Positions 1 through 60,762 of a stretch of DNA of 64,000 nucleotides are shown here, piece after piece. The DNA comes from Epiperipatus broadwayi. Taxonomy: Eukaryota; Animalia; Onychophora. How positions within the stretch are numbered: position 1 is the first letter of the stretch; every line of letters starts with the position of its first letter. Location of the stretch: contig JAQFVV010000003.1 of NCBI GenBank assembly GCA_028023455.1, positions 23,002,001-23,066,000 on the forward strand, in the 5' to 3' direction. The notes beneath the pieces are model-generated. The model was given only the letters and a program-made list of their open reading frames with translations, had not been told where the DNA came from and did no database searches. The position numbers and the translations under genes were made by a program.

Positions 1-1
1 G

Positions 2-780
2 TGTCATGAATGTTGGCAAAATAAACCAGCTAATAAAAATTATGTTGGGACGCCAGTGCCAATAATAGCTAAGAACCCAAACGAGCTACTGGCCATAGAT
101 TTTTGTGGTCCATTACCGTCCTTTCATAAATATAAAATATACATTAGTAACCTATGATGTTTTTCAAAATTAATAGAGACCTACCCCTTACGAAGGGCTG
201 ACATCAAATCCTCCATAACTGTATTAAAAGAAAAATAATTTATTCAACAAAAACAGATACATCATGTTCTCACTTCTATCCGTAACTCCCAGTTTAACCC
301 GTGTGAACGAGATATGAAAAAATTGGGGGAGTTCATTTCATGTACATTTGAAAGGTAACCATCAACAATGGTTTAAAGTATTGCCACAAATGGTTAAAAT
401 AATTTAACTATACATACCACGAATCTACAGGATTAGCTCCAGAGTGCTTGCACTATGGTCAGATTGAGCCTTCTCTTTTCAAGTGTCCTGTTCTTACTGG
501 GAATGAAACTGAACATAGTGGAGGATCAAAGCTTTGCTAGAGACAGATTGAAGAAGAAAGCTGAAAATAAAGAAGGGGAATATTTGCCCAATACAATTTA
601 CAGTAGGAGACTGGGTTTATGTTAAAACTCAGCCAGTTAGCAAATTATGTGATAAACAATATAAAGTTTTTCCCTTTATTTGAAGGCCCATACAGGATCA
701 TCCAAAAATGCGGACCTAATGCTTTTATAGTATAAAGGGAAAAAAATAAAAAGGGGACTTATAATGCACAAAGTCTAAAA
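2..780 (+). mobile_element. Ty3/gypsy LTR-retrotransposon integrase remnant (pseudogenised, truncated by window start)
   Basis: Frame from nt 2 reads CHECWQNKPANKNYVGTPVPIIAKNPNELLAIDFCGPLPS (zinc-finger CxxC then rve core start). Later fragments read NYTYHESTGLAPECLHYG and FTVGDWVYVK...EGPYRIIQKCGPNAF (GPY/F motif). Multiple stops and frameshifts. Confidence 0.85.
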
Positions 781-7335: not shown

Positions 7336-8239
7336 TGCAATAAGTGATACAAAGATGACGAAAAATTATGCTGCTGTAACAGCAATATGTCAGCTAAAGT
7401 CATATGATGGAATCACATGATATTTTATTGGTAGATCCCATTTGCATTATAAGATTCATAACAAAAAATTATACTTTTAATTGCCTTTATTGAGATTTGG
7501 GATATAATAGAGTATAATTACACATTGTAATAAAATCTTTCACAAAAAAATTGTTGTAGAAATTAAAAGACTATTACCATATATGTTACTCATGTATAAT
7601 ACATATAAATATAGTTATGTTTCACAGATTAGTTTGTATTGCTTTTGTTTTTCCCTTGTCTTTTTTTTTTTTTTTTTTTTGGAATTGCAATTTTGCATCT
7701 ATAATTCAAACAAATGGAATAAGTTTTAAATCTCTTAGAGATTTATTTGATTTTATTAGTCCCTGTTATACAGCATATCTCAGAAAGAGATGTAAGATGT
7801 AGTAGATAAATTATAAACATTTAAAGTATAAATGATATACATTACATCAAGTGATTTTTCTTGAGAGCATGTTGGTGTAATAGGCAATAAAATCTAAGTA
7901 GTCAAGTTATAACATTTGATCTTCATAAATGTAGTGGATTGAAGTATGTAAATGAAATTTAGACACAATAGTTATAATATATAAGGTAATATATCAATTT
8001 ACTTATTAAATTAGGAATAATTTAAGAAATTATAAAATAAAAGCAAATAATTTCAATGGAACACAAAGTGGCCGAGCAAAGCCATGATTCATGTACTTTG
8101 ACCTCCAATTCTGATACTCCATCACAGCAGTAAATCAAACAGCAGCCAATTACTGAATGAATGTTAGAAACTGCAAGTCACAATAGATCCTGATTGCTGA
8201 AAATTCATAATTTAAGTGCTTTTAAGAGGCATATAAACT

Positions 8240-8700
8240 GAAACTTTAGTGCAATGTTGTGCTACATTCTGAGAGTAGTTGAAAGACTTTATGTCATTCA
8301 ACATGGATCTGAAACTTACACTTTTAATAGAAAAGTAGTATAGAAGTTTCAGACTACTTAATAAAATATGGAGAGATCTATGTTGACAGCAACAAGCAGG
8401 GAACAAAATCAAAACATATAGAGGAGAGAACAATATATCATTGAAAAAAAAAAACAAATGAAATTGGGCTTTACATATTGCTAGAAAATAATGGTAATAT
8501 AAGGTTAATTGAAATATAAGCTGGATCCCATAAAACTGTAAAAGTCTTGGAAAAACATATAGGAGATGAAAGGATGAAATAAAAAGAAGCTTATTGAAAT
8601 GGTGTAGAGGTATTGATTCTATAAATTGGATTAAACAGAGAACTTTCATCCTGCGGTGAACCAATAATGATTGAAAATGATAATGATGAATTAATTATTG
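8240..8700 (+). mobile_element. Decayed 3' end of an RTE LINE (related to 50390-53335)
   Basis: Colinear with 52890-53335 (YGSETWTL..., WIP..., FILQW... equivalents), ending in a TGATAATGATGA tail. Confidence 0.8.
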
Positions 8701-8930: not shown

Positions 8931-10945
8931 GTAAATTTTTATTTGATGTAGTCATTAATAGCATAAAGATAATCAGATATTCAACCAGTAAATTCATAAG
9001 CTAGTTGAATACAGCCACTCAAAATATATTCAATTCTGAATAAGACTACATAAATTATACATTTAATATGATTAGCTCAAATATTTTACAAAATCACAAT
9101 AAAGTTTTAGACAAACTCTAATTACTCTGGAAGAAAATCAGAATTGTTTTTGGTTCCTGAGTTTTTATATTTTGCATCTGCCCTGTAAAGAATACTATAA
9201 TTACAAATTTATCAAAGTGATCCCATAATTGGGGTTTTCCCCACCTCCATTCTACACTATTAATTTCCGATTTCTAAACTAACGATAGTTTTCCATTGAA
9301 TTTTAACACCTGCTAGGAAACTTTCATACCTATTCAGTTCAAGCATGTGATTACATTGATGAAATTAATTATAATAGCAATATGCAGTCTGAATACAATT
9401 TAAATCAGTTTTACTAAACAGTCATGTTTATATATAAATATTTCTTCATGATAAATATATTATTGCATTTATATAATATTTTTATTGAATCTCATTATTA
9501 TTTAATAGAATTTAAATGATATTTTATTCTGAACATTACAGACTGAACAATTAATTAATGTAATAAATATTTTCATATAGCACAAATAATCCATTGAAAA
9601 TAAATAAAGTCTAACACTACAAAGGTCATGGTCAAAACAAATTGGATATATCTGATAGAATAAAATTTAAAACAGTGCATTTTTGCCTTTATCATATTTA
9701 TACAATAAAATATATGCTTCTCTTTTATTTTTCGTTATAATCTGAAATTATTAAACAAAGAAATATAAAACTACAATATTGCATACAACAAATTGCAATG
9801 GGAGTGGTAGATATCCATCTGATCTGTGCTGAAATGTGAAAAAAAAGTTAAAACACTGCAAATTTTCTTTTATTACTTTCAGCTGTTATATAAAAATTAT
9901 TAAAAAATGAAACAAAGGTCACAATTAAAAAAATAACAGTGATAGTCATATATATTTAAGAGATGTGAAAAAAAATTAAAAATACTGCAAATTTGCTTTT
10001 ATTATAATTATTATTATAATGAAATACATTGATTTTTTATTTATTATTAGTCATACTGTAGAAACTATTTTTACAACTACACTAATGCTGACTTCAGAGT
10101 GTATGATAAATTTCAAACACAATTTACTTTTGAATATATATCTTTATGAAATGTTATAATCAAACTGAATGCTTAAAGGATTATGGTTTAACCTTGGTTG
10201 TATACAAATGTATGGCCAGTTGAAAGTTTGAACCTGAATATCTGCTATGTACCAATAATTAAGAAGAGCATTTCATTAGATCAGTTATGACCTCCAGAGG
10301 TTAAGTGAAACCATTCTCATTATACATTCTTCAAATGCTTGAAGCTTGTCATGATGTAAATTTGAATAATTCTTTTTTGTTTATAATTTTATTAGACATC
10401 AGAAGTTTATAGTTTATTTGGAATGACCATATTCTGATTATTGTATTTAGGTTCTGAATCATGGAAAGGTTCCAAGTTTGTATTGGATATTTATAATTTA
10501 ATCTGAATTTATTCACATTTATAAATGTGGTTGACTATAAGTATTAGCCATTGGCTTTTTAGTTAGTATGAAAGAATTTTGAATATATTCATTGACTGCA
10601 AGCATGCATAACATTGACAATTTTTGGAATTTTTCTATAGTTATCCAACTAACATGCTTTTTATAATTCTATAAGTCATATTATTTATAAAAAATCCAAT
10701 TTTTCAAGTTGATCTAAAGTTTACTAAATGGTTTCTATAGTAAAATAGATCTGTCTACCATTTTAAGGCATTAATTGCAACATGACCTGCGAACAATGCA
10801 ATTCAAAAGCTGAAACCATTTCTTGTTTGTGGGTTAGACTTTACTAAGAACTATGATGTGGTCTTACATGCAAAATGATTATGGATATTAACTACATGTG
10901 TTGTACAAAGAATTAAAACTTTGCTAATAGATTATATATATATAT

Positions 10946-13051
10946 TGTACCAATCGGAATGAAAGTGAAGATTGAATCTAACCGCAAAAACAATATCTGC
11001 ACTACAAGGGCGCCATCTAGGCATTTGAGCCTAGAAAAATTTATAAAGTAGGCAGATACGCGCTGTTAAGATTCCACTTTCTTTAAATATTCCGACCATT
11101 AGCCCAAGTCACTAGCTCAGCGGAGACGCAGAGATAAAAATCTATAAATTTTATATCTTAAATATAAAAGAATAAAAGCCACTGCCAGAAATTAACACAT
11201 AAAAATATTTATTTACGCACATATAAAATAATATTTAAATTTTGAGGAATAAATTTAACGTTTATAATTTTATATTGATCTTTAATTCTAAATTTAAGTA
11301 GATTGCAAATAATGAGTTTACTATTTATTTAGAGGGTCGAGTATGAATGGACTACATAGGTCTGCATTTGAAAAGAAAATATTCTTCCCTGATTTAACCT
11401 TAGGCAACAAATTTCGCAATCAACTGGCGCCAATCCATCTGATACATTCATGTATTCAATGTAGCATGATACGACAACACAAAATACTATATTGTCAGGA
11501 ATGTACATCTGAACAATAAGTAGAAATAGAGAAGACATTGACTCTCCACCAACAGGAATGTGACATCTGTTGGCAAGTAGATCAATAAACAAAAAACTCC
11601 ATAGGAATGGACTGCGGTCTTCTGCCGACTTACAAACCCATCCATAGGCAAACAGAGGGTGTGTGGCGTATATCTATAATCCTGCCCATAGCGGACCTCA
11701 TACTACATCTACTAATTACACAAATATATCCAATCCATTGAACCAATTCAACTACGAAATGAATAACCTAAGATTACCCTCCCTTAATATAACTTTACAA
11801 AACTATATAACCATTCACGCCCGACTTAAATTTAACATTTAAATACGTTCGCATAGATTTGTTTAAAAATGTTGGGTATAGATCGATTACATAGATTCCA
11901 CAGTCAAAAACATTTCAAAATAAACATAAACGATCAAAATACAAAATTATTGATACCGACAATCGCAGAGGGAAACTTATAAGTAACCCAATAGTATTCA
12001 CCATAAGATACTTGCTTTGTCACCAATAACTTAAAAGACATCCGAATAAATACATTTTAGATACTCACCATAAGGTATCATTATTTATTGAATGTCTATA
12101 TATTTTGATCAAATATGAAAACCAAAATATAATTAACCGCAAACGAATCCATGCAAGCATCTATAAACAACTTAAATTTCATACGTTTAAATAATCTTTA
12201 CAATAAGAAAAAAAAAAATGGAAATGATGTTTATCAATCGGGAAACATATAAAATTAAACATTATTAATTTGATTTAAAAACCTAAAAGTCAGATAGAAG
12301 TTCATAAGCTTGAACGAAAGTTCTTAGTTATTTTTTTAAATTTAGAGTTCATGTCAATATAGCTTACAGTATAAGAGTCCAGGTTCCTGTTGGCAATTCC
12401 CACGGTGTCTCCATTGGAAGAAAATGTTCTGGAGGTAGCATTAGCTGGTTCCATTCTGGTATCACAGTCTTTTCATTTTATTTTTTTTTTAAACAAACAA
12501 AAAAATGAGAGAGAACGGCAAGTGCGTCTTACCGTTGTCATCAAATCAAGTTGGAAAAACTGACTGGAACTCAATATTTTTTCTTTTTATAGTCCTCCTA
12601 TGGATTCCATGAACAAAAACGTCACTGTTCTGTTTTTTCGTTATGGTCCGGGCCTTTATTTGCTTCCATTGGTCAAGCTAAAATCTCTTTCTTCTCTTAT
12701 CTAACTTTTCATCTGACTTTTTAATTAAACAGCTTTTAGATAATTAATAAACAATCATTTCCATTTACAGATTACAGGAATTAATTAATACCTGTTTTTA
12801 TTTTAACTTACGTTATTTTTTTATTAAAATATTTTTATATTTCAATCTTGTATTTTTTTATTTAAAAAAAATACGTTCAAATACTTTTTTTTCTTGTTTA
12901 TGAAAAAAATATTTTTAAAGTTTAGCATCCGTGCGAATATATATATGTTTAACAAACATTTTAATTTTAGCGTTTAGTTTTTTCCTTTTATTTGCGAACT
13001 TTTAAGTTTTTATTTTAAATAAATGTAACGACATATTTATATATCGTTACA
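10946..13051. mobile_element. ~2.1-kb TG...CA element Y1 (solo-LTR-like or Ginger-like non-autonomous) in an (AT)n tract
   Basis: Starts TGTACCAATCGG after (TA)n and ends TCGTTACA before (AT)5, with ATAT on both sides. Homologous in inverted orientation to 13062-15003 along most of its length. No transposase, RT or gag detected. Confidence 0.75.
11343..11647 (+). pseudogene. Small Cys-rich ORF (three CxxC) in element Y1, disrupted
   Basis: MNGLHRSAFEKKIFFPDLTLGNKFRNQLAPIHLIHSCIQCSMIRQHKILYCQECTSEQ*VEIEKTLTLHQQECDICWQ..., then after a frameshift NKKLHRNGLRS. Homologous to 14361-14668(-). Confidence 0.65.
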
Positions 13052-13061
13052 ATATATATAT

Positions 13062-15003
13062 TGTAATGGGCACACACGCCGTTACATTATTTTTTTTTTA
13101 AAATTAGACATTAAAAATAAAAGTTCACAAATAAAAATTTGTATTTAAAAATTGAAAATTAAAAGTCATCTAAACTTTATATATATAAAATCGCACAGAT
13201 GAAAAATTATTAAAAGAAAACTATTAAAGAAAAAAAAGTATTTTAAAACTAAATTTTCATAAAAAAAAACTTAAAAGATTTGAAGATAAAAATTTATCTT
13301 TAAGAATGTATATAATTTAATTAATGCTATTGTGTAAAATGGAAATGATTATTTTCAATTAGTTAAAAGTAAACTAGCCCTTGGGTATCTCAAAATTTAT
13401 AAGTAAAGGTCAGATAGGAGAGAAAAACAACAATAGAAACAGAATAGCCAATAAAAGAAATCCCTCAGGAAATGGACCTCAATGAAAGGATCATCATCAT
13501 CATGATGTAATGTTGAGTTAATCCACAAAATTAATATTAAAAAAAGAGATGTGATAGAGAGAGGTGTGATATGGGTTACGTTGGAGAGAGTTGAAGGAGA
13601 AGGGATTGAAAGACTCACTTTCAATTCCTTTAGTTTTTCTATAAATGAAAAAAAGAAATGACATCATTTTCCCATATTGCAGACCCCATGATATCAGAGT
13701 TCGGCAATAAAATACCATCTAAAGTAAAGGACCTCTGGATGAATCTATAAAATAGCCAACAGCATAGCGGTTTTCCCAGGACATCGGGGGAATTAATGCT
13801 GGATTCAAATTGCAAGCAACTTTTAAGCATGGATTTTTTTTAAAACCGTAAGAACATTATGAACTTTAATGAACATTAATTCTAAAACTTTCCAGTATTT
13901 GAAAACAATAAGAACTCTAAATTCTAAACATTTCAATATTTAAATAGAAGTAGAATTTCCTATCTGACTGAATTATTTATCAATTATTTTTATTGAATGT
14001 ATTATTTTTTAAAAAAAATCATTTCCATTAATTTATTTTTTCCGTTTTTTAAGTTTTTATTATGATTTTTTTTCTGTTAAACTAAACTTTTAATAAATTT
14101 AAATTTAAGTCGGGTATGAGGAGCTGCATAGATTTGTAAAATTATATTAATTTAATTAAGGGAGGGTTAATCTTGGGTTATTTGTTTCATAGTTAAATTG
14201 GATTAATCGATTGGATATACTGGTGTAATTAGTGAATGTAGTATGAAGGTCCACTATGTGCAGGATCACATGATATGCCACACTTGGGCAAATTAAGTCC
14301 CATTTCGTACTGACCATCAGAAGCATATGTATTCCCTGCTCCTTGGATCACTCCATTAGCCTATGGAATGAGATAGTAAGATGGCAAAAAGGATTGCAAT
14401 CCCTTCCTATGGAGTTGTTTTTTTATTGTTCTTCTTGCCAGACAAATGTAACATTACTGTACTGGACAAGAGACAATTTCTTCTCTATAACCATGCTGTT
14501 CAGATGTGCATTCCTGACAGTATGATATTGTGTTGTCATATTCATGCCGCATTGAATACATCGATACATCAGATGGATTGGCATTGGTTTGACTGCGAAC
14601 TTTTGGCCTAAGGTTAAATAAGGGATAGAATATTTTCTTTTCAAATGCAATCTATGTAGTCTATCCATACTCGACACTCTAATAAAATATTAAACTCATC
14701 TGTGCGAACTTCTAAATAAAAGTTAAAACGTAAATTAAATTCTAAAATAAAAGTTAAAATGTAAGTTAAATGTTTGTGTGTGTTATTACTGGCAGTGGCT
14801 TTTTTTTTTTTTGATATTAAAAAATTATCTCTGCTGCTCCGTGAGCTAGTAACTGGGGCTGACGGTCGCAATAAAATATATATTTAAAATTTGGATCTTA
14901 ACTTACATATCTGCCTACTATATAAATTTTCCAGGTTCAAATGGCCTGGTGGCGCCCTGTATGGCAGATACGATGAGATTCCATGTCCATCCCGATCGTT
15001 ATA
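13062..15003. mobile_element. ~1.9-kb TG...CA element Y2, diverged relative of Y1, inverted and 10 bp away from it
   Basis: Starts TGTAATGG...CCGTTACA. Ends CCCGATCGTTATA (reverse complement TATAACGATCGGGATG, versus Y1 start TGTACCAATCGGAATG), followed by (AT)5. Confidence 0.75.
14361..14668 (-). pseudogene. Small Cys-rich ORF (three CxxC) in element Y2, disrupted
   Basis: MDRLHRLHLKRKYSIPYLTLGQKFAVKPMPIHLMYRCIQCGMN..., then after a frameshift SYCQECTSEQHGYREEIVSCPVQ*CYICLARRTIKKQLHRKGLQSF. Shares LTLG, PIHL, CIQC, YCQECTSEQ, CxIC and LHRxGL with the Y1 ORF. Confidence 0.65.
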
Positions 15004-18000
15004 ATATATATATTGATGAATAATAATTTGATAAACTGTAATTGTAAAAATATGTTAATATTCTGATATTTAAATATGAATAAAAATCCAAGAAATAAAA
15101 CTTTGTAATAGGTTATACTGTTTATGTATACCTTTATATTAATGAATAACAATATTTTAATAAATTGTGTGTAATTGTAATGGTATGTTAATATATTGAT
15201 ATTTAAGTAATAGTCCAAATAGTGATTAACTGTTTATTATTACCACCAATAGCATCCATAAGGTCAGTCAACCGGACATATGCCAAAGGCTAATGGGGCC
15301 CCGCACTGAGCTACTTTACTTTAATTAACAACACTATATAAAGCATTAATAAAATAGACTGAGAGATCAGCATTTGATGCAAGTTTTTATACATAAAACT
15401 AAAGCTTACTTTTGAAATGAAGTGCACCAAATTTCCAAACGTCTCACCATCTGAATGTTTTTTATAAAAATACAATGAGAAAAGTTTCCTTTAAGATGGC
15501 TCTGAAAATACACTTGTAGTTTATAAAATAACCAGTATAGTCTTATTGAATGTATTCTATAGAATCTACTGTGGTAAGGTCATAACATTAAAAAGTATTT
15601 GGCGGTCAAATTGAGTGTGATTTTCATGGCAGGTGCAGACCTCTTTCACATATCTAAGAGGATTTAAAAGATTTTGTAAAGAGATGCAATATTGATTACT
15701 TTCACTGGGAGAATATGCCTAAGAATGCTCATATAATAAGTATATTCTAGTATATGATGGATATTTAATTAATAATTACCTTGAGTGTGGTCTCTATGCC
15801 GAGTCCTAAAAGATTATAAAAAAATATAGAAAGATGTCTATAAAAAAAAATCAGATGATATTACTTAGTTTGAACATTTATATGGTAGGTTAAACTGGAA
15901 TTTATCTAAGGATTTCTAGCTACTGAACTAATTATTTCATCATTGCATTAAACTACAGAGGCCAAACCATTTGCTAAATGATCATCTGAGATGTTAAAAT
16001 TTGCTGATGTTGTGGGAAACTTAAGATTTAAAAAACTGGAATAATTATTGCAGATGATGATGTAAATAACACAGAAACATATCTTATATTTTAATATTTA
16101 CAAATTTATTTAAATAATAGGCTGACATATTTTAAATATATTAATACAACACCCTATGAAAAAATTTCTAAGGAGGCATTTTTTATAAAGTCACCCAATC
16201 TTAATCTTAACACTCTTATAAAAGATGTTAAGCTTTCTATTCAAAGATAGATAAAATAAATAAGATCAAGGTAAATATTATGAATGATTGCTAATATTTG
16301 ATCAACATGGTATATTTTTAATATTTAATTATATTATAAACTTGAATAATCCATCATTAAGTTGCATTTAACTTTTTGGGGATTTTTAATTTTTTCTATA
16401 TGATTAACATGTTACTAAACTGCAAAAGAAGTCTTAATATAAATATTGGCACTAGGTTGTTGCACCACACTATCAAATTATATTTTAATTGTCCCTTTAA
16501 ATATCCTTACAATGACACATTCTCCGTTTCCGTTGTTACAAATTCAATGTATTATAAAATACATTAATGCAATAAGAGCTAGGATATCCACTATATTTTA
16601 TTCCAAGTTCATTTCACATACATTGTGGATAATAGTTCAGGTATTATTCATGAACTTTGATTGCAGTATATATTTAACTGTTCTATAAATATACAGTAAC
16701 TTCTCAACATGCACACACATACAATATATATACAGTATATATATATGCAACAATTTTTTTTTTGTATGTATATAAATTATAATATAACCAAAATTTAAAA
16801 AAAAAAAGTAATTAATAAATGGGTTGAGCACATTTACATATACTCTTACTATGACCACTCATTCATATTTACTCCAAAAATAATAAAAGAACTTACTGTT
16901 GTAATGGTTAGAAACGTATGGTTCGTCAACAAGACCCAAGAACCAAGTAAAAGTTAATCTGCATGTATGGGGGTACTGGTTCACACTACACAATGCTGAT
17001 CAAAACCCATTGACCTAAACCTTGAAAATCTAAACCACGTGACCATTGCCTCTGATGCTAGCATCTGTATCCTTCTCTTTTCGGGTCTAGTGATCAGGGA
17101 GAAACATGGACTCTTATAATAAAATATCTCAATAATAGTAGTGAGGTTGATATTCTTAAAGGAGTATATAGTAGGAATAAATTCATTTGCAATAAACAAA
17201 ACAAACACTAGAGTAACATATATATATATAGTTTATTAATGAAATAATGTGTTAGTAATTGATCTTCTACAATAAAAATACAAATACAGTAAATATATCA
17301 TTAACTATATGCTAGGTTATGTGACATCTGTGTGTTTTCATCCCTACTTGGAATTGATTTAGACAAATCTGTCTCAATAAAAATTACTAAATTGATTGGT
17401 CCAACAAACTACCAGGGATGAGAGACGGACTAATCACCAAAATATCTTCAACTTAATCTGATGAGCATTCAACTCCTCAACACTAAATCTGTAAGTCAAA
17501 TAGGGTGATCTGAAAGATGTGCAACTGGCACAGTGAAAATTCAACCTTAAAAATTAGTATAGTGAACAACAACCTGGGGCATCCCAGTTAAAGTACAGAC
17601 AACCATATGTTAATAATAACAGGAGAATGTGGTACTGGCTGATGGGATTATATTACCTCTGTAAAGTCTCACCGATGACTAAACAATGATCACAGGCAGC
17701 AGGAACATATATCTGTCCCATGAACTAAAAAGAAAAATCCTCCAAGATACTAGAGAATAGATATGCTCAGCATTGAGTGATGCATAGTTAAAGAAACAAG
17801 TAACTGATCCTGACAAATCTAAATGTCATGGCAGGAAAAACATCTGCACAGACAATAAGTATATGCAAATGAAGAAGTGATCGGTGAATTTGTTCATATT
17901 AAATTTTAATTGGAGACGTATATATAATACAATCCAGCAACACATAAAAATAATCATAAATATAACTTATTTAGCCTGTTTATAAAATATAAGAGCATGT

Positions 18001-18164
18001 GTGGGTTTGCCTGATATGCCACTTTAGTCATTCACTATCCCCCTCCCTTCACGCTTTAATAAAAAAAAATCTATCACTAAAAAAATATCACCCTGTGTAA
18101 CTGAATGCTTTTCTGAAGATTAAGTTGTCTTTAGTTAACATTTAATAAATAAAACAAATATCAT

Positions 18165-19063
18165 ACTGCCAACCAGAGTAATAAATGGATGCCAGAAGAC
18201 TTGTGCATAAAATCTCCACCTAGTGCCTACTCATCCAACATCCCCAGACTAGTTTCTGGCTTGTGACCTTCATCAATGAGTCGCCTTGGATCTGAGAGCA
18301 CTGCATCCAGATTTTAGAATCTAATGCAATCCTCCAACAGCCACCTTCTATCTCTACTTAACTACAAAACTATTAGAATGAAATTAAAAACCCAATAATA
18401 TTTTAAATCTAAACTCAATAGCTTATATAGTCATATGGGTCTGAACTCAGTTCAGCACCCATATTTTTGGTGTCTTTGGCTTTTTAACAACCATATCCAC
18501 CACTATCCTATTAGGCAGGATTGGTGTTAAACCACTGAACATCACATGATCACCATCTCTTATGCTAGCACATAACTGTTATTAAACAGGCAAAACTCTC
18601 TATACAGTAGTATCAACCTGTGTCAACCAGAGTAGTCAATGGATGCCAGAAGGCTTGTTCATAAAATCCCCACCTAGTGCCTACTCATCCAACATCACCA
18701 GAATAGTTTCTGGCTTGTGGCCTTCGTCAGTGAGGAGCTTTGGATCTGAGAGCATTGCACCTGAAAACACATAAGCTATTGAGCTTAGATTGAAAATATT
18801 ATTGTGTTTTCAATTTTATTCTCATAGTTTTGTAGTTAAGTAGAGATAAAAGGTGGCTGCTGGAGGGTTGCATTAGATCCTAAGATCTAAGTGCAGTGCT
18901 CTCAGATTTAAGGCTCCTCACTGACGAAGGCCACAAGCCAAAAACTAGTCTGGGGATGTTGGATGAGTAGGCACCAGGTGGGAATTTTATGCACAAGCCT
19001 TTTGGCATCCATTGATTATTCTGGTTGGCACTACTGTATGGAGAGTTTTGCCTGTTTAATAAT
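18165..19063. mobile_element. Hammerhead family-1 composite: ~1.4 tandem monomers (HHR on minus) plus an inverted partial monomer (HHR on plus)
   Basis: ~454-bp period between hammerheads at ~18235-18292 (C3>U) and 18687-18745 (core intact). Inverted copy at ~18905-18965 (G12>A). No clear TSD. Confidence 0.9.
18687..18745 (-). ncRNA. Type I hammerhead ribozyme, family 1, catalytic core intact
   Basis: Minus strand ATCCAAAGC TCCTCA CTGACGA A GGC CACAA GCC A GAAA CTAT TC TGGTGA TG TTGGAT: stem I, stem II and minimal stem III, with a UUC cleavage triplet. Confidence 0.7.
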
Positions 19064-21163
19064 AGTATTTTGAAAGCTACAGATTCCTAAGATAAATAAT
19101 ATATTGTAATCTTTTCATAAAAAAAAAAATTGTACACATAGTTAGCCTTTAATTATATCCCTGAACCAACATATATATATTCATAAGTAGTTAACATTTG
19201 AATTTTAAATAAAACAGATAACAACTTAGATTTTAAATAAAATAAGGATCATTTCACACTTGATTATATATAGTTTGCTGATTTTCAAGTCGGGAAAACA
19301 AGACAAAAGCAAAGTTCTACTTAAAAATAATTCAAATTATTTTTTAGAATATTTTAAAAGATAGGGATGACCAAATATAAAAAGAGAAGCAGTAATAAAC
19401 TATATAATAAACAATTATTTTCCCCCAACTTTCTTTTAACACTAGCGTCCGTTAACGAAAAATGTTAGTATAATATATACTTACATAATCATTTAAATGA
19501 CGCAATTTATCTATAAATCTAACATAAATTAATTTACAAGTGAGATTATAATGAAATTATAAGGCCATCCGTATTTTAAACTAAGGGAAATAATTTCATG
19601 AAATTCAAAGTTAAGGTATAAAATGATTATTGTATTAATTAGCATGCTTACAATTTAAATGGGAATAGAGTTCCGAGAAATATAGCTATATACATAAATT
19701 ACTTTACACTCGAGTTTTATAATACCTTCTTATACTGTTGAAATTGTTCGTGGCTGGTTAAAATAGTCTCCCATGATGTAGATTACATCCAAGGAGGGAA
19801 TGATTTGCAGCATAATGATATTTCCTTTCTTTTTTCCTCTGGTTTACTCCGGGTTGTTTCATTATGGTACGTCACTGCAGATAAGTTTAGTCTCTATCAT
19901 TCATATTGTTGGGAATGGTTTCATCTGTTCTCTGTGCTGGGTCTCTAGGTCAGAAGGTGGATGGTAATGCCTTTTCCCTGAGAAGACAGGGAAGCATCGG
20001 TGTTTTACTCCTTTGCCATTATAGCTTTAAACACGTCAATGGATTTGTTTAATGCTCAAGCTAGTACAGGAATCTAATGCAAGAATAAGCATAAATTCAA
20101 AAACAATCCCAGATATATATATTCTTATTTTATCTTTTACACAAAAAATCTCCCGAAAGGCCTTTTTTTTTTAAAAAAAAAAAAAAGCAAATCAATTAGT
20201 AAAATGAAAATACCAGCGTTAGTTGATTTTAATATTACCATACCCGTTGTTTTATTATAATCTCTTATCTCTGCTATTTTCTACCAAAGTTTTAAAATCA
20301 AATTAAATAAAGGCATCTTAATTAAATTCTCTAGTAAAACCTTTTAAGATCAACTAGATAATAGAGTTATGCCATTTTTATTTTAACTGCTTTTCAAAAT
20401 AATATAAGTTATTTAATCACTAAAAATATTTCTACTTTCTATGAAAATTCCAACTTTCATCATAATTATATCTTTTTTTCTTCAATAATTTTTTCCCCAA
20501 AAGAAATGTAACAATTCTTATTATTAATATAGCTATGACCTCTTTAGTTGTTTTTATATTTTTTAGTTTATATTAACTTTGCAATGTCATCCCTGCTTTA
20601 TCCCATTCCATATTCTCAGATAAACTTAGCTATCTAATGTAATTTACAGCTCACTTTTTTCTCCCACTAATAAGATAACTTTCATTTTTCCATTTAAGAA
20701 AGATATATTTTGAAAATTTTCTTAAATTTCATACTATTTCTAGCTTTATGCTTAGAAAACTATAACATATCAATCAATAAAAAAAAAAAGAATAAAATGT
20801 ACTAGCTTTCAAAATAACTCAGTGAAATGTACTTATTACAAAATTTATGAATTTTCATATTTTTACTTTTTGTTTATTAGCATTAAAATATATATATATT
20901 TGAAAAGTAGTTTATATTGGTACAGTGCATATCACAATGATTAAAAAAAGGGAATTTTTTAAAAATTGCTATAGAAAATAATATATTTAGAAATAGAAAT
21001 AATGAATTGATTTGTCATTTTTCAAATATAAAAAAGTATTTATGAAGAAAACATAATCCAGAAAATTATTTTAGGCTTTTATTTTCAAGCACCTTTCAAC
21101 TATCCACACTATCTCATACAACTGATACACATGACCACATACATGTAGAAAAGATAAATAATC

Positions 21164-21207
21164 ACCAATATAAGTATTTCGTGCTAAACCAGCACTCATC
21201 AGTTGGT
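21164..21207 (-). ncRNA. Type I hammerhead ribozyme, family 2, canonical
   Basis: Minus strand ACCAA CTGATGA GTGCT GGTTT AGCAC GAAA TACTTA TA TTGGT: perfect 5-bp stem I, perfect 5-bp stem II, short stem III, AUA cleavage triplet. Confidence 0.88.
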
Positions 21208-21535
21208 CCAGATTATCATCGCCCACACACATATATATAATCAGTGCTCAGTATATATTAAGATAGCAAATCTTCATACTTTAATGGACAGGCTTCAATG
21301 CACTCCAATCCCCAACTTTTCAGCCATCTATATCTTGAAAATCTGATGATGAAAACCCAGATCCCATGCTGATGCTAATTATTTTAATGATATAGATAGC
21401 TGAAAAGTTGGGGGTTGGAGTGGATTGAAGCCTGTCCATTAAAGTATGAAAATTTCCTATCTTAATATATACTGAACACTGATTATATATATATATATAT
21501 ATATGCGTGTGTGCATGGGGGAGATGATAATCTGG

Positions 21536-21579
21536 ACCAACTGATGAGTGCTGGTTTAGCACGAAATACATATATTGAT
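21536..21579 (+). ncRNA. Type I hammerhead ribozyme, family 2 (one stem I mismatch)
   Basis: ACCAA CTGATGA GTGCT GGTTT AGCAC GAAA TACATA TA TTGAT. Confidence 0.82.
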
Positions 21580-22959
21580 GATTATTTATCTTTTCTACAT
21601 GTGTGTGGTCATGTGTATCAGTTCTATGAGATAGGGTGGATAGTTGAAGGGTGCTTGAAAATTTGAGTTCAAATCCCCTATACTTACAATTAAAGCTCCC
21701 AGTTTTGTGAAAAGTGTTTGGTTTTCAAATAATTAGGCTTTTATATATATTTTTAAAAATACCCAAATTTTGTTTGCAGATAAGAAGTATTGGCAACTCT
21801 AATTCTTTTCTTATTCAAAATAAAAACAAGGGCAATAGAACATTTATCATATACATTATCTAAAAGGAAATGACTAAGGGTAAAATACCTTTATACAGTC
21901 AACTTTAGACAAAGGCTGATTTGATAACCTCCATATATGAATTATGAAAGAGAAGGTACTATTTGCCTTATTTGGCAATTGGGTTATGAAATTTGGACAT
22001 TTTTTCATTTTTGTGTAACTCTTTACCTAAGGATAATTGGGTACTATTAGATGATTAATTGTAGTGATTATGGAACAACTACTTAAAAAAAAAATCTAAG
22101 TCTGATTGCATCCTAGAATTTTTTTATCCACCTGATTCAAGGCCAGATCACAAAAATGCCAGATAAATGGACTACAAGGTGCACTTTTACTATACATATA
22201 AAATATTGTGTATATAAACTATTCATTTAAGGAAGATGTGGGATTTCAGCAATTACATTTTTTTGTTCATCTTACACATAAAATATTCTGCTAAGGAATC
22301 AACTGTTTCCATCCAAATGGCTTTTACAAACTTTACATTTGTAATAAATTATTCTAGAAATATTAGAATAAAATACCAAAGCAAATTCAAAAGTTAACAA
22401 TTATTTGTAACATGCTCTTTCTTAAAGTTTGTATTCATTGCTTTTTTTTCTGGCTCAGAGCAATGATAAAATGGCTGACTCCAGAGCTAAAGATTTCTGG
22501 ACAGATTTTTGGCCAAGAAAAGTAAAAAGTTAGTTTGGTCAATTGAATGAAAATTTTGTGTTCAACTTATAACTAACTTGTTTTCTTGAATGTTACATAT
22601 TCTTCAAAACAACTGACTCTTGAGTAACAACAATAAAAAACTTCCCATTCTAAGTCTTCTTATACAGGCTTTCTTGAAATAAAATTTTCATCCAGCTTGC
22701 CCACTATGATCATACATCATCATAGTGAGGACATTATATTTAGCAATGCTATAGAATATTTATCTATAGTCATTTTTGCCATCAACGATTAACAAAATGA
22801 AAAGAGGCTGCTTTAAATAATATTCATTTTGGTTTCACAGTAATTTACTGCATTAGAAAATTTTTGTGATGAATGCATGTAAAATTCTAGTCTAGTTTAG
22901 AATGGTAGATCACTATTAAATGCTAACTAGCATGTAATCAAGAGTTTTATGGTGATTGC

Positions 22960-24716: not shown

Positions 24717-25474
24717 CATAGAGGCAAAACTCTCCACATAGTACAAGCCAAAGTAATCAACGGATGCAGGAAGGCTTGTGCATAAAATTCCTATCCAATC
24801 TTGTCCAATATCCCCAGACTATTTTCTAGCTTGTGATCTTCATCAGTGAGGAGCCTTGGATCTGAGAGCACTGCACCTAAATCTTAGCATCTAATGCAAT
24901 TCTCCAGCAGCCACCTTTTACCTATTTAGTTAACTATAAAGCTTTGAGTCCAAAATGAAAACATAATGTTTTCAATTCAAGCTCATTAGCTTGTATAAAT
25001 AGTTTGTGTAAGCATAAAGAATGGTGAGCATGTGATGTTTGGTGATTTAATATCAATCCTGCCCAATAAGATTATGGTGACTGTGGTTATTAAAGAAACA
25101 AAGACACCAAAAAGTATGGATATTTAACTGAGTTCAGATCTATATGACTATACAAGCTAATGAGCTTGAATTGAAAACAATTGTTTTAAAGCTTTATAAT
25201 TAGTTAATACGGTAAAGGGTGTCTGCTGGAGGACTGGATTAGATCCTAAGATCTAGGTGCAGTGCTCTCAGATCAAAGATTTCTCGCTGATGAAGGTCAC
25301 ACACTAGAAATTAGTCTGGGGATAATGGATGAGTAGGTAATAAATAGGGATTTTATGCACAAACCTTCCTGCATCCACTGATATTGAGTGATGCCACTGT
25401 ATAGAAATTTTTGCCTCTGTGTAAACAGCTTGTGCAAGCATAAAAAATAGTGATCATGTGATGTTTAGTGGTTT
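24717..25474. mobile_element. Hammerhead family-1 head-to-head composite with 13-bp TSD
   Basis: Partial monomer (HHR 24803-24861 on minus) joined to about one inverted monomer (HHR 25272-25330 on plus). Direct repeat AATTCTATCTTTG at 24704-24716 and 25475-25487. Confidence 0.88.
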
Positions 25475-27761: not shown

Positions 27762-28263
27762 CATATATTCATTATTAAAAGCCATATAGGCACAGATCAT
27801 TCTATTAAACAACACTGATATATTTGCCCATAAAAAGCATTAATTTATATCTGTATAGATATTTTCTTAAGCCTCTGTTTCATAAGTAATAATGGGAAAT
27901 TTTAAGACAACCATATCCAATAGGCTAAAAAATGCCCAAGTATTTCAATATAAAGTTTAACCACAAAATGCTAAAGAGGCAAAAAAAAACACTACTGCTG
28001 AGATATTACTCTTTCCCCAAATGCATGTATCATTAAATATATATAGAGTGAGATGAACACATACCTTTGTAATAAGTAATATTGCCCATTTTATATTTAA
28101 GAAAAGAAGCATTATTATTATTATTTTTTTCTAACACATAAATAAACACATATATATATATATATTATTTCATTTTTTATTGTCATAAAGAATCTTAACC
28201 TAAATCAAATAAACAATAATTCTAACACTCATTTATATTCTCAATTTTCTTTAACAAGGTACT

Positions 28264-28853
28264 TACATTCGAATATCAGCCTTTCAAGCTAATTGTGCAA
28301 ATGCTTTGCGAGTGTTAATAATAAATGAATACTTTCTCATCAATACAAGATATAGTATTTATGCAGGAATAAAAGGAATCCTCTTATCCCTACAACTCAA
28401 ATATTTATATATGAGCAAATCTGAAGTACTGGCAAAGAAAGCATGACAATAGAACAGTCACTTTAAATTACTCTATACGATGTCTGAATGAATGACATTG
28501 ATGAAATTGTTTAGAATTTACTAAATGTCATTACAACTGAAACTTAATCATATATAAATAAGCATTTATTTTATATAGCGTCATTCATTCAGACATTGTA
28601 TAGAGTAATTTAAAGTGACTGTTCTATCATCACGCTTTCTTTGCCAGTACTTCAGATTTGCTCATATATAAATATTTGAGTTGTAGGGATAAGAGGATTC
28701 CTTTTATTCCTGCATAAATACTATATCTTGTATTGGTGAGAAAGTATTCATTTATTATAAACACTCGCAAAGCGTTTGCACAATTAGCTTGAAAGGCTGA
28801 TATTTGAATGTAAATACAATTGTATACAGACGCTATATAAAATAAATGCTTAT
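28264..28853. mobile_element. Fold-back insertion of unknown family with 13-14 bp TSD
   Basis: ~235-bp near-perfect inverted arms (28264-28496 versus ~28580-28815). A second, 26-bp inverted pair at 28557-28582 and ~28829-28855. Direct repeat TTAACAAGGTACT at 28251-28263 and 28854-28866. Confidence 0.85.
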
Positions 28854-31652
28854 TTAACAAGGTACTGTAAAAGTATATATGGGTAGAGGGTGGATTTTAA
28901 TACAGATATTTGATTTATTTTCTCTTTTTTTTAACAAATTAAAATAACATTTTTAACTAATAAGAATCAGGCAAACGATTTAAGAAATTTAAGTTTGACT
29001 GTTTCTTATTTTACAATTATAAAAATCGTTACCCCTCTCCCACTTTAGATTGGGATAAAGCAAACAAATTTATACATAAATTGGTTTAATAGTAAAAACA
29101 TCATTTGTCCCCATACTTGACTGGGTTGGCATAAATAATTAATCAATCAAATATATATTTTTATACCTAAAGAAAACATACTGGCATATCTCAAAATAGA
29201 TATATAAAAGCTGTATTTATAAACTCTATAGTAATCTTTTGTTCCACTTAGAATTAGACATTACACTCTTTTTTTCTACCATTAATAAGTAATCTAGTTA
29301 TAACACAAATTGACTTGTTAAAAATAATAATTAAAAAAAAACTAAAACACTCATATATATCACTGTTCTTTTTAAACACATCTTTTTTTTAAGATAGAGT
29401 CTTTTACCAAACAATTATAAATCTGTGAATTTTAAACTTAGATAATCTAGAGTTTTTTTTATTGATAGATGACATTTTTTAATTATTTTATCTTGAAGGT
29501 TTAAAAGTTTATACCTGCAATGCTTACTCTGTCACTTTATTGAGGCAGCTATTTTCCTACTGGTTCACTTATTTTAGGATCGATCTTTGGATTTACCAGA
29601 CTCAGGATAAACTGGATTCGAAGTTGGTTCTCCATTTTTTTCAGGCAGCAGCATGGAATCAATTAGAATTCTTTTTTCCTATAGATGTATTTTTCTGGAG
29701 ATTTTTCCAGAGGGAAAGGGTAAATTTTATCTACTCACAGACCATGGTGATTACCTGTCATCAGCTTATATTGAAACAGTAAGATCTGCTTTGCAGATCT
29801 TCATTTCACCTTTTTCCTACCCTCATACCTTAGTTTAAACTCCAGTGTATCAGTGTGTCTGCAATGCACTTATATACCGAAAATCCTGCCCAATTTTAAA
29901 TCACGAGTACAACACTTGTGTTATATATATTTGTATAAGTCATGCCCAATAAATAAAATGTTGAAAATTATGTGTATGTCCACATAATTTAGATTTATTT
30001 AAAAAAGTCAGTTATATAGGTTGTAATTGCGCACACATTGTGATATTTATTTTAAAACTTATGTGAAAATAATAAATTGTTATTTAAAAAACTTATGTGA
30101 AAATAATAAATTATTTAAAATTATTTTGTTTGAATCTGTTTATAAAAATATATTACAGTCGTAATATTTGTTTTTGATTTAAAATAAGTTATATTTGTTT
30201 CGTAAATAGATTCAAATATTGAAAGTTAAAAGTAAAATAATTTTCTTTTGAATTTAAAAATCATGTCCTATATTTTGTTTAAAATAAATGAGGGCTGGTA
30301 GGAACAATAGTTTTAATTATTTAATGTTATAAGAGCTTATCTAAAAATACAGATGTCCACTTAAGGTCATTTCTTTTAATTAGTAAAAGTTTGTTTTAAT
30401 TAAATCAAAGTTGTAGTCCGAATGTCGACAGGGAAATTAAAAATGGAAATTAATTAAAATTTTGTTGAATTCCTTTAGACATTCGGATAGAATTGATTAC
30501 AGCTGATAAGTGAGCAAAGTTTGGAATATTTTTGTAATGCTCCAGGGCAGTTGTATTGTACAATTTCACTATATATAGGAGGTTTTTCTTTTGTTCTTCA
30601 TTCTAGTAATATTCCAGCAAATATTCTAGGAAGATTCCTAGTATTCTAGTATTATTCTATTCTAGCAAAATTTCTAATATATATTTGTTCTGAGATTTTC
30701 TAGCTACATGCCTACAATCTTAAGTATCTGAAGCAGAATTTTCATCTTCAAATAAATTTTACCATGTTTTACAATACCACTTGAAATATCTATGAATCAC
30801 CCAACCTTTAACATTTCTAGCTTTGAAATGATGGAGTAGAGTCGGCAAGAAGGCTATTTTCCCCTCGGGAATGGTCGGCCGCTGCTCTATACCATCAAAT
30901 GCTGTCACATAGGAAACCCTAAACTGCTGCTACTGCCAAAATATGAACAATACTAGATTTTGCTGCTGACTCGTATAAAACCAGCCGACAATCAATCTAC
31001 CTGCAAATGCTTCTCCAGAGGTAACCCCAACATTAACCCAAGAGCTCTTGTGATTTTCTCCTATAATTAATATGCTTAGCTATTTTAAATTGTTTCCCAT
31101 TTTACTTTAGTAATCATGTATTCCTTTAAAATGTTCTAATATAATCAGTAATTTTGCTCTCTATCCTTGGGTTAATATTTTATATTTATTAATCTTTCTC
31201 TTTATTTTATTATGATAGTGTGCCAGAATAGTCCTTGACTGAGTGAATTATTCCCTTTGTTGAAAGCAATACATCAATATTAAGGCATTTTAAAATTATA
31301 AATAGTTTCCATTTTATTATCTCACGACTCATTCGTTTGAGGGTTATTTTAATGTTAGTCAATATGTATACTAATTTTATAGTTTAAAATCCACATTTAT
31401 TGATTTTAACCTAATATGAGAATATGTGTGAGGTCAATGATTAAATGTATCACAAATGCATGATTGTGTAAATAAATCTATGCTTTCTTTTTAAACTCAC
31501 AAGCATTCATTTTCCTATTTTAAATATATTCTGCTTTAATTTCAAAGTTTGTAATTGAGATTGAGAATGGGTGGATTCTCTTTAAATAATTCTTAGGGAA
31601 TTGATTAGGCATTTTCTCAATTTAAGTAAATCCTTTTTGTATGCTTTATATA

Positions 31653-32690
31653 TGTTAGTCAAGTATTGCCAGTAAGTGTATTGGTTGTCGAGACTGCTTT
31701 GTTTATCTCCAAGGGCTTTAAACGGCCAAGACCATTTCCAATTTCATTTTCTGCGGTTCCCAGGCAGAGTGTGTCCTCGAATGTCACAGCTGTCACCCAG
31801 TCCCTAAGTTTTGGATGAGTCCAGCCTTCGGCTGTCCATGACAACACCTTCCTATGAATCAATGGCGAGACGCCCTCTGTTGTCGTTTCACATATTCACT
31901 ACAATTTTGCTTATTTATATTTTACAAAGCATCCGTGATTTAAACACATCACACCCTCCATCCTTTAATAAATACCTTATTAGCAATACCGACCTCCCAA
32001 TATAATTATAAAATAAATGCCTTGATCACATCCCCACTTTATCGTTTAATAAGCTTTGGTCCATGCTATTCTCAAAATCAAGAATATTCTATTAAACTTT
32101 AATGTTCAAATGTTTTATTAAACTTTTATAATTTACTCGAAGCACCTCGCACATCTTCCCATCTCTTTTAAACACATTATCCTAATACTATATTGGCCTG
32201 AGGTATAGACTATGTACTTAACAACCTTTTAATGTAAATTTTATGGAATGTTATGCTAACAGCCATTTTAATAAGCATCCCTGTCTCATATAAGCAGACA
32301 GTGTGCGTTATATATATTTCTTGCAATATAAATAAATCTTGTAAATCTTATAAACAAATTTTGATCTTTTATTTTATTGATCCCTATCACTGTCTCGGTC
32401 TATATATCTATTTTATACATTTCTTTTGTACTATCCATAGACGTTAATTAGCAACCCAACTTATCTCATAGTATAGAGTCTCTTTATTTCTCCCTGACCA
32501 CCAGGCACTGGTAAAAGATTATATTATTAGTAGCATCAGATGCGTTATCACGTAGGTGTCACTGTGAAATTTAGACTTTAGATTTGAACCTAGGATATCT
32601 AGAAGGCAATCCCTCCTAGAGTGTTCAGTTTTGTGTTTGGGGTTTGAATTCTGCATTGTGTTAGCGAGATATATGAATCTGACCGTTACA
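31653..32690 (-). mobile_element. ~1.0-kb solo-LTR-like element X2 in (AT)n context
   Basis: Minus strand starts TGTAACGGTCAGATTC and ends ATACTTGACTAACA, flanked by ATATATAT and TATATA. Retains CpG. Homologous termini to X1. Confidence 0.65.
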
Positions 32691-49639: not shown

Positions 49640-50363
49640 GATTATACATGCCGAGTCTTCTTGACAAGCTCCAAAAAACATAGAATTAATTTAGTAAATT
49701 CATAATTTTTTTGTCATGCATGAGTGCCTATTTAACAATAAGTTATCATTGGGCATGATTACTAATAGAATTTGGAAATGGATATATTGGGATATGTTTG
49801 AGCTATATAGAATGTTATCTTTATATTACTTTCAAAAATCAAACTTTATTTACACATTAGAGTGGATACAACAGCAATCAATGATAGGATAACATTGTCT
49901 ATAAGAAAGTTTCAATGTATATATATATAAATGTAATATGCAAGCCATGTATACAGAAATATCAAAAGTTGTATTAGACCAATAATTTAGTCTTAAGAGC
50001 AGTATAAGAAACTCATGATGGTTAATTAATGCAAGTATAAAAGAAACATAAATAACTATAAATAAAATCAAAGATTATATTAATGCCTTAAGGCAGCATG
50101 TCATGAGCTTAATTAGTTAGGAATATAAAGTAATTCAAACCTATGTCTAAGGTTTGGAAATTCCATTGATTAATGATTATCCTGGCCCAAGGAGTAACGA
50201 GGACATAAAATAAGTTGATATTTAGCCAGCGTGGTGAGTTTATTGGCTTTTTACCTCTGAGTTTAAGATCAAGAAACACCATGGTCTTTCTTCTCAGTGC
50301 CTGATAAGGCAGAATGAATGTTTGTGTAAATGATAAATATTTTTCCAATACATATATACAATT

Positions 50364-53335: not shown

Positions 53336-53499
53336 GTAAGTTAATTGTATAGTATGCAATTAATATCAAGTTTGTGTTTTAAATATATAGGGTCTATGAC
53401 AGATCTTCATAGTTACAGTTAGATTATTCTTAAGTGAAAGATGTAATATATTATTTGTTTAGTGGATGGGAGAAAGTTCTAGTTTTGGGCCTAAAAAAC

Positions 53500-60100: not shown

Positions 60101-60266
60101 GCAGGCTGTGTAAAGTTAAAGCAAATATTATTAGCCTTTTTTTTAAAAAAATATAGGTACATGGAAAGTAACTTTACATGACAAACTATTTTAAGACTAG
60201 AATGGAAGAAAGCCCCGATGAGTGACTAAGGAACCATGAATATTTAAGATCAATATAACTGCTCTT

Positions 60267-60645: not shown

Positions 60646-60762
60646 GCTATCTACGTGTTTTATTAAACTTAAAATAAGTTCCATTAAGAGCAGTTAAATT
60701 TATTTAAGTTAACTGCTCTTAATGGAACTTATTTTAAGTTTAATAAAACACGTAGATAGCTA
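60644..60762. repeat. Perfect 54-bp inverted repeat with 11-nt spacer
   Basis: 60644-60697 is the exact reverse complement of 60709-60762. Spacer ATTTATTTAAG. Confidence 0.97.

What the first reader, a model, noticed from the sequence alone, without database searches (positions are those of the whole stretch)
10946..15003. Back-to-back pair of ~2-kb TG...CA elements encoding a conserved small Cys-rich protein and no mobility genes
Seen: two diverged homologous units in opposite orientation, separated by (AT)5 and bounded by (AT)n. Each carries a ~100-codon disrupted ORF with CIQC, YCQEC and CxIC. In YCQECTSEQ the copies differ only at three synonymous sites (tat/tac, tgt/tgc, caa/cag). Further synonymous pairs occur nearby (aaa/aag, ttt/ttc, tgt/tgc). 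A TATA-like block T(A/T)TA(A/T)AGTAGGCAGATA is conserved ~300 bp upstream. Inference: the ORF was under purifying selection before decay, so these are independent insertions of a family carrying a zinc-binding accessory gene. They could be long solo LTRs with a U3-embedded, probably antisense, gene, non-autonomous Ginger-like elements, or virus-derived segments. An anti-silencing or transactivator role is speculation.
Basis: partly seen in the sequence, partly recalled or inferred. Interest (0 to 1): 0.8.

Follow-up and report, generated by a model that had tools for sequence, protein, structure and literature searches.

The report
Two AT-targeting repeats with cysteine-gene relic
Two related copies of a very abundant 2-kb mobile repeat sit back to back in an AT run; they are likely leftover retrotransposon ends (solo LTRs) and carry a broken, probably once zinc-binding mini-gene with no known relative, but the two copies show no sign that selection kept it.

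Summary
Structure confirmed; selection claim not. Unit 1 (10946-13051, +) and unit 2 (13062-15003, -) are homologous at both ends, unalignable over ~0.8 kb in the middle, and flanked by (AT)n in ATAT phase. Laid sequencing contigs show a very high-copy dispersed family: summed depth is thousands of times single-copy depth, and 96 contigs leave unit 2's inner end into unlike flanks. So these are two independent insertions, not a local duplication; unit 1 looks younger (CpG o/e 1.04 vs 0.59). Both carry an 81-codon frame with shared ATG and TAA. Its three in-frame CxxC motifs exceed chance (1 of 2000 shuffles), so a coding relic is likely. But the pair shows no frame-specific constraint: 9 of 34 differences synonymous versus 8.6 expected (P=0.47), codon-position differences 12/9/11, nine indels, none a multiple of three. 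Two cited 'synonymous pairs' are a one-base register slip. No homologue was found in any library searched. Ends of 7-9 bp and ATAT phase fit Gypsy-type solo LTRs (0.55) better than Ginger2 (0.25); no gag-pol interior was seen. A new family of a familiar class with an unexplained cargo; function claims remain speculation.

The parts
10933..10945 (.). (TA)6T left target tract; ends ...ATAT next to unit 1
   Evidence: single-copy contig of run X1 is laid up to 10945
10946..13051 (+). Unit 1, 2106 bp, TGTACC...ATCGTTACA; younger copy, high-copy subfamily
   Evidence: CpG o/e 1.04
11042..11058 (+). TATA-like block TATAAAGTAGGCAGATA, ~95 bp inside the end, 300 bp before the ATG; promoter role inferred only
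11312..11332 (+). Conserved 21-nt stretch ending in a T-rich TAG 10 bp before the ATG: a 6-codon upstream frame or a splice acceptor (untested)
   Evidence: read; present in both units
11343..11588 (+). 81-codon Cys-rich frame, CxxC-x10-CxxC-x18-CxxC-W, one internal stop (11517-11519), no frameshift
   Evidence: no homologue
11589..11850 (+). GC-richer block as well conserved as the ORF (79-86%); possibly more of the same coding relic
11860..12730 (+). Subfamily-specific middle, barely alignable to unit 2
13024..13051 (+). Terminal hairpin TGTAACGA-n12-TCGTTACA at the inner end of unit 1
   Evidence: -6.3 kcal/mol, z -2.7, 2 of 200 shuffles as stable
13052..13061 (.). (AT)5 spacer: target tract shared by the two insertions
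13062..15003 (-). Unit 2, 1942 bp, TATAACGATC...CCCATTACA; older copy of a sister subfamily
   Evidence: CpG o/e 0.59
13062..13086 (-). Terminal hairpin of unit 2 (weaker; different loop)
   Evidence: z -1.7, 14 of 200 shuffles as stable
14423..14668 (-). Unit 2 copy of the frame: same ATG and TAA; nine indels against unit 1 summing to zero, two stops in the unit-1 register; motifs spread over two frames
14908..14924 (-). TATA-like block of unit 2
15004..15013 (.). (AT)5 right target tract
   Evidence: single-copy contig of run X1 begins at 15004

Best explanation
The region is two separate insertions of one very abundant repeat family into the same (AT)n tract, likely solo LTRs of an unidentified Gypsy-type retrotransposon, each carrying a decayed cysteine-rich frame that probably once encoded a small zinc-binding protein. 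Shown: both ends of each unit, the family's high copy number, unlike flanks at the inner ends of other copies, the ATAT phase of the junctions, the non-random CxxC cluster. Inferred: an integrase that cuts ATAT with an even (probably 4-bp) stagger put unit 2 in first; the duplication left AT tracts that took unit 1 later, in the opposite orientation because (AT)n is palindromic; recombination between paired LTRs removed each interior. The frame sits in the conserved arm of the repeat behind a TATA-like block; it was probably already dead or unconstrained when the two subfamilies diverged, so it now rides along as a fossil.
For: Summed X1 depth per bin 0.3-3.0 million in unit 1 and 0.015-1.0 million in unit 2, against 66-116 left of the element and two flank contigs at depth ~36 (the tool warns this is no copy number, so only the order of magnitude, ~10^4, is taken). 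96 contigs of X2 match unit 2's inner end plus the (AT)5 and go on into unlike sequence, agreement 0.46; other copies of unit 1's end continue after 0-9 letters of (AT)n into different flanks. End-to-end inverted match is 7 of 9 and 5 of 9 letters and falls to background by position 12-20, as for integrase att ends. Junctions read ATAT|TG...CA|ATAT, which needs an even-length duplication; ant PbTRIM LTR elements and their solo LTRs make 4-bp TSDs, mostly ATAT (PMC3532108, passages). Conserved ends with an exchanged middle. CpG o/e 1.04 vs 0.59 vs 0.27 in the flanks. CxxC cluster 1 of 2000 shuffles.
Against: No gag-pol interior, primer-binding site or polypurine tract was seen joined to either end: none among the 24 of 283 loose ends shown, and the outer ends were not examined at that resolution. 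One contig of run X10 joins a TGTAACGAT end directly to sequence like 12939-12972, which would be a ~135-bp derivative keeping both ends, as DNA transposons make (one contig). The CpG difference between the units is not significant by itself (Fisher P=0.09). Unit 2's outer end is TA, the IS3EU/GingerRoot signature. All six Cys codons being kept has P=0.07 only. No homologue confirms that the frame was ever a gene.
Confidence: 0.55

Rival explanations
1. Complete non-autonomous DNA transposons moved in trans by a Gypsy-integrase-like transposase (Ginger2- or IS3EU/GingerRoot-like), carrying a captured or accessory Cys-rich fragment.
For: Ginger2 ends follow TGTNR and target AT-rich sites (PMC2836005); Bombyx/Rhodnius Ginger2 has TIRs of only 16 bp and a 3.8-kb member without recognisable coding region (PMC3845634); the short two-ended derivative in X10 and the lack of any seen interior; a head-to-tail joint 13051 to 10958 in X7.
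Against: Inverted match is only 7-9 bp against 50-180 bp for Ginger2 and 100-150 bp for GingerRoot; junction phase is ATAT, whereas Ginger2 targets RTATAY/TATA; no transposase relic in 12 frames.
Confidence: 0.25
2. The Cys-rich frame is a live accessory gene of the family (zinc ribbon with a regulatory, export or anti-silencing role), open and selected in active copies and broken only in these two by post-insertion mutation. This concerns the cargo and is compatible with either element class.
For: CxxC cluster beyond chance; shared ATG, shared TAA, all six Cys kept; unit 2's nine indels sum to zero and leave an open 81-codon frame; four of the five listed variant sites in unit 2's frame, one of them in a stop codon, are private to this copy (94-99.8% of X1 depth reads another letter) and an in-frame 3-nt insertion exists in 15 contigs (only 40 of 563 variant rows and 12 of 138 indel rows were shown).
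Against: No synonymous excess (P=0.47), no third-position bias, indel density like the flanks; a one-base insertion at 11421 in 14% of X1 depth and a change at 14581 in 53% are common in the family; the block after the stop is as conserved as the frame; no homologue among 1.84 billion proteins.
Confidence: 0.25
3. One 4-kb foldback element or a local inverted duplication.
For: The region is one large imperfect inverted repeat, and the window holds several palindromic repeats.
Against: Inner ends are true ends in other copies; the middles do not align; the arms differ in depth and CpG decay; no listed contig bridges the centre with 31 letters on both sides.
Confidence: 0.03
4. An integrated segment of a DNA virus (small Cys-rich early gene behind its promoter), amplified afterwards as a repeat.
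For: A GC-richer 500-bp island with a TATA-like block and CxxC motifs; small Cys-rich genes are common in invertebrate DNA viruses (recalled).
Against: No match in Pfam, PHROGs, PDB, IMG/VR or the protein libraries; the ends are integrase-type.
Confidence: 0.08

Closest known systems
Solo LTRs of AT-targeting LTR elements, e.g. ant PbTRIM (PMC3532108, abstract and passages); Drosophila 17.6/297 (recalled)
   Same: Short integrase-type ends, 4-bp ATAT-type target, many solo copies without mobility genes
   Different: About 2 kb long, carries a Cys-rich frame and a terminal hairpin; no paired LTRs, PBS or PPT shown
Giant-LTR Gypsy elements Ogre (LTR 1.9-6.5 kb) and planarian Burro (PMC6431247, passages)
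   Same: LTRs of this length exist, in elements with accessory ORFs of unknown function
   Different: Their extra ORFs lie in the interior; no sequence link to this family
CERV of C. elegans Cer1 (PMC10309623, passages)
   Same: A Gypsy-encoded accessory protein with a cysteine-rich, possibly C4 zinc finger and no homologues outside its host group
   Different: 517 aa, spliced from the interior, function shown; no similarity tested or found here
Antisense ORFs (TRP28) of plant Retand elements (PMC11963269, abstract); MMTV sag and HIV nef in U3 (recalled)
   Same: Precedent for accessory genes near or in the LTR
   Different: Retand ORFs lie between pol and the 3' LTR and are conserved domains; here the frame is broken and orphan
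Ginger2/TDD and IS3EU/GingerRoot DNA transposons (PMC2836005, PMC3845634, PMC10045372, PMC6839031; passages)
   Same: TGTNR (or TA) ends, AT-rich targets for Ginger2, non-autonomous members, gene-fragment cargo in GingerRoot
   Different: TIRs of 16-180 bp are missing; target phase is ATAT, not TATA; no autonomous partner found

Membership tests
Solo LTR (Gypsy-type) | TG...CA ends with a short inverted match | tested here: met
   Unit 1 TG...CA, 7 of 9 letters; unit 2 TA...CA, 5 of 9
Solo LTR (Gypsy-type) | 4-6 bp target duplication around a single repeat | tested here: inconclusive
   Flanks in ATAT phase allow 2, 4 or 6 bp, not 5; (AT)n hides the length
Solo LTR (Gypsy-type) | Dispersed copies with the same ends and unlike flanks | tested here: met
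   Shown for the inner ends; outer ends by the depth step and one nested joint
Solo LTR (Gypsy-type) | Some copies paired around gag-pol with PBS and PPT | not testable with these tools
   No genome held; none among 24 of 283 loose ends shown
Ginger1 | TIR 40-270 bp | tested here: not met
   vs PMC2836005
Ginger1 | CCGG/CCGT target duplication | tested here: not met
   Flanks are (AT)n
Ginger2/TDD | TGTNR termini | tested here: inconclusive
   Both inner ends TGTAA; outer ends TGTAC and TATAA
Ginger2/TDD | TIR 50-180 bp (16 bp in Bombyx/Rhodnius) | tested here: not met
   7-9 bp only
Ginger2/TDD | RTATAY target, TATA duplication | tested here: not met
   Junctions seen are in ATAT phase
Ginger2/TDD | Autonomous partner with H2C2 + DDE transposase sharing the ends | not testable with these tools
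   No genome; collection scans found no relative
IS3EU/GingerRoot | TA..TA ends, TIR 100-150 bp, 6-bp duplication | tested here: not met
   One of four ends is TA; no long TIR
Troyka LTR | CG..CG ends, 3-bp duplication | tested here: not met
   vs abstract of PMC12440569
Functional accessory gene | Frame-specific purifying selection | tested here: not met
   Pairwise only, low power: P=0.47; indels not depleted
Functional accessory gene | Non-random metal-binding motif | tested here: met
   1 of 2000 shuffles, 0 of 28 tiles
Functional accessory gene | Transcription or translation | not testable with these tools
   No holder on record as RNA; only contigs of guessed-RNA runs could be laid

The most novel reading that the evidence does not exclude
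A Gypsy-type family in a large AT-rich animal genome encodes, inside its 2-kb LTR, an orphan 81-residue triple-CxxC zinc protein with its own promoter, so that each of some ten thousand or more solo LTRs was born as a small gene; active subfamilies keep it open and use it to regulate the element or to counter host silencing.
Probability: 0.15. Interest if true: 0.7.

Novelty: new variant of a known kind. Interest (0 to 1): 0.33.

Why it matters
As it stands: a probably undescribed, very abundant repeat family that targets (AT)n, piles up at its own target sites and may make up a visible share of a large genome; useful for annotation, ordinary in kind. If natural copies keep the frame open under selection, it would be a gene carried in the LTR of an invertebrate-type LTR retrotransposon and multiplied by solo-LTR formation, with a protein unlike any in current libraries; accessory proteins such as CERV show that such genes can reveal how elements get round host control. 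Seven literature searches (open-access full text only) returned no description of such a family or of an ORF inside an invertebrate Gypsy LTR; Repbase and Dfam could not be searched.

Tried and rejected
No whole genome is held, so copies could not be aligned. Homologue searches for the frame: word search 0 candidates and 1 candidate without score among longer proteins; phmmer over 1.84 billion proteins 0 hits at E<=0.001; Pfam, PHROGs and PDB nothing better than E 0.12, 0.24 and 8.8; IMG/VR 19 pattern hits, none confirmed. The language-model look-alike search was not obtained, so remote resemblance is untested by that route. DNA patterns: 0 metagenome hits for a 23-nt shared stretch; 1, 7 and 2 hits for end motifs, none with blastn or tblastn similarity to the units, taken as chance. 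Rfam: none at gathering score, four weak matches far below it. Single-sequence AlphaFold gave pLDDT 57.7 for the best and 32-38 for the other four models, all-helix: uninformative, so no fold search was run. The 114-codon antisense open frame 11332-11673 has dN/dS 1.6 and is rejected as a gene. No RNA holder listed; depth in guessed-RNA contigs says nothing on expression. Small-share runs X9 and X10 are not used as evidence of host or habitat. By eye (recalled motifs) the frame resembles a double zinc ribbon in its CxxC-x10-CxxC spacing and less well B-box, piggyBac CRD or Chapaev/RAG1 fingers; Pfam supports none. A recalled integrase-like reading of frame 30762-31895 got no Pfam or homologue support. 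Three look-ups of earlier findings were empty.
Full report
What is there. The window is AT-rich (GC 21-39% per kb), CpG-depleted (o/e 0.27-0.31) and holds an RTE-type LINE, a decayed Gypsy integrase and many palindromic repeats, so it looks like a large animal genome; the host was not determined and no genome is held. Unit 1 spans 10946-13051 (+, TGTACC...ATCGTTACA), unit 2 13062-15003 (-, TATAACGATC...CCCATTACA), with (AT)5 between them and AT tracts outside. They align over the first ~890 bp (73% and 79%) and the last 190-290 bp (66-68%); the middles barely align (score 38, best of 100 shuffles 34), the 3' parts clearly do (97 vs 60). The inverted match between the two ends of a unit is 7 of 9 and 5 of 9 letters and then falls to background. 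Each inner end is a small hairpin opened by a second TGTAACG (z -2.7 and -1.7).

Copies elsewhere. Ten of 12 listed runs hold part of the stretch, none on record as RNA. In DNA run X1 summed contig depth is 66-116 left of the element, jumps to 0.3-3.0 million over unit 1 and 0.015-1.0 million over unit 2, and drops to a few hundred just right of it; flank contigs at depth ~36 stop at 10945 and start at 15004. The tool warns that summed depth is no copy number; against 36 the medians are 40,000 and 6,000, inflated by contig overlaps, so I take only 'order of ten thousand'. At the centre, 96 X2 contigs match unit 2's end and the whole (AT)5, then go into unlike sequence (agreement 0.46); copies of unit 1's end run on after 0-9 letters of AT into different flanks (24 of 283 loose ends shown). 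One X7 contig shows a copy nested in an AT run inside another copy. The inner ends are therefore true ends, AT targeting is general, and the tail-to-tail pair belongs to this locus. Unit 1 keeps 48 CpG (o/e 1.04), unit 2 25 (0.59); the difference is suggestive only (P=0.09), and fits unit 1 being the later arrival.

The small frame. It runs 81 codons from ATG 11343 to a TAA that both copies share; unit 1 has one internal stop and no frameshift; unit 2 differs by nine indels of 1-2 bp that sum to zero and by two stops in that register. Three CxxC motifs within 45 codons of one frame arose in 1 of 2000 dinucleotide shuffles of the unit, 1 of 2000 of the GC-rich part, and 0 of 28 other tiles of the window, so a coding origin is likely, with the caveat that the pattern was chosen after seeing it. 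Selection, however, is not visible between the two copies: 9 of 34 differences synonymous over 73 gap-free codons, 8.6 expected, P=0.47; positions 12/9/11; dN/dS 0.55 beside 0.49, 0.51, 0.61, 0.88 and 1.62 in the other frames; even the core 11430-11516 (0.28) is matched by other frames (0.22, 0.26, 0.39). Indels are as dense as in most neighbouring segments, and keeping all six Cys has P=0.07. The sequence after the stop is as conserved as the frame (86% vs 85%). The test has low power, because mutations after insertion dilute any signal: four of five listed variant sites in unit 2's frame are private to that copy, but only 40 of 563 rows were shown, and frame-shifting and residue-changing variants are also common in the family. 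No homologue was found by any search, and the single-sequence fold is uninformative.

How it most likely works. An integrase-type enzyme recognises the TGTAAC-like ends and inserts into ATAT; the phase ATAT|TG...CA|ATAT needs an even stagger, most simply 4 bp (inference). Each insertion leaves AT tracts on both sides, so a second copy landing next to the first, in either orientation, is expected for so abundant a family. Very short inverted ends, 2-kb length, conserved arms around an exchanged middle and the ATAT phase fit solo LTRs: PbTRIM LTRs use 4-bp, mostly ATAT, duplications (PMC3532108, abstract and passages), and LTRs of 1.9-6.5 kb are known in Ogre (PMC6431247, passages). The defining test, a paired copy around gag-pol, could not be run, and no shared interior appeared among the loose ends shown. 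The main rival is a non-autonomous Ginger2-like DNA transposon: Ginger2 has TGTNR ends and AT-rich targets, but TIRs of 50-180 bp and RTATAY targets (PMC2836005, abstract, first fifth of the text and passages), or 16 bp and TATA in Bombyx and Rhodnius (PMC3845634, passages); one X10 contig that joins a TGTAACGAT end to the 3' subterminal sequence favours this rival. Ginger1, IS3EU/GingerRoot (PMC10045372, PMC6839031, passages) and Troyka (PMC12440569, abstract) fail their end or target tests. If the unit is an LTR, whether the frame is sense or antisense, in U3 or in R-U5, is open.

Comparison and verdict. Accessory genes of LTR elements are known: CERV of Cer1 has a cysteine-rich, possibly C4 finger needed for RNA export (PMC10309623, passages), and Retand elements carry antisense ORFs before the 3' LTR (PMC11963269, abstract); LTR-borne genes such as MMTV sag are recalled, not checked. 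No supplements were read. Nothing ties this frame to any of them. The finding is a real, probably undescribed, very abundant AT-targeting repeat with an orphan Cys-rich relic: a variant of a known kind. The exciting part, a selected accessory gene, is possible (0.25) but unsupported by the two copies; a regulatory or anti-silencing role in an LTR-borne gene is less likely still (0.15). Interest 0.33.

Noticed in passing
window 30686-32690: A third 2005-bp unit, TGTTCTG...CCGTTACA, between AT tracts, with a degenerate version of the same end hairpin; no DNA or protein similarity to units 1 and 2, no Pfam match, CpG o/e 0.49 over 30500-32690. Possibly another family of the same class.
   Followed up: partly
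window 1-770: Decayed Gypsy integrase end with SH3_Tf2-1 match (E 0.00036, below cut-off), followed at ~890-1185 by a small element with CAGGGGTC ends and an 8-bp duplication (hAT-like, recalled); unrelated to the units.
   Followed up: partly
window 50337-53400, 60240-60646, 8212-8694: RTE-type LINE with long endonuclease and RT frames (label recalled from the translation) and two 3' fragments; an opposite-strand zf-RVT end at 53510-54210.
   Followed up: no
window 48284-49643, 28259-28817, 21081-21662, 24756-25382, 18162-19066: Several long palindromic (foldback/MITE-like) repeats, some nested.
   Followed up: no
   Followed up: no
window 13051 to 10958, run X7: One contig (depth 48) joins the right end of a copy to the left end of a copy lacking its first two letters: a tandem or a circle junction.
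   Followed up: no
window 11007-11022 and 14944-14957: A conserved GGGCGCC block ~60 bp inside the outer end; its reverse strand resembles a CTCF-type site (recalled motif, untested).
   Followed up: no
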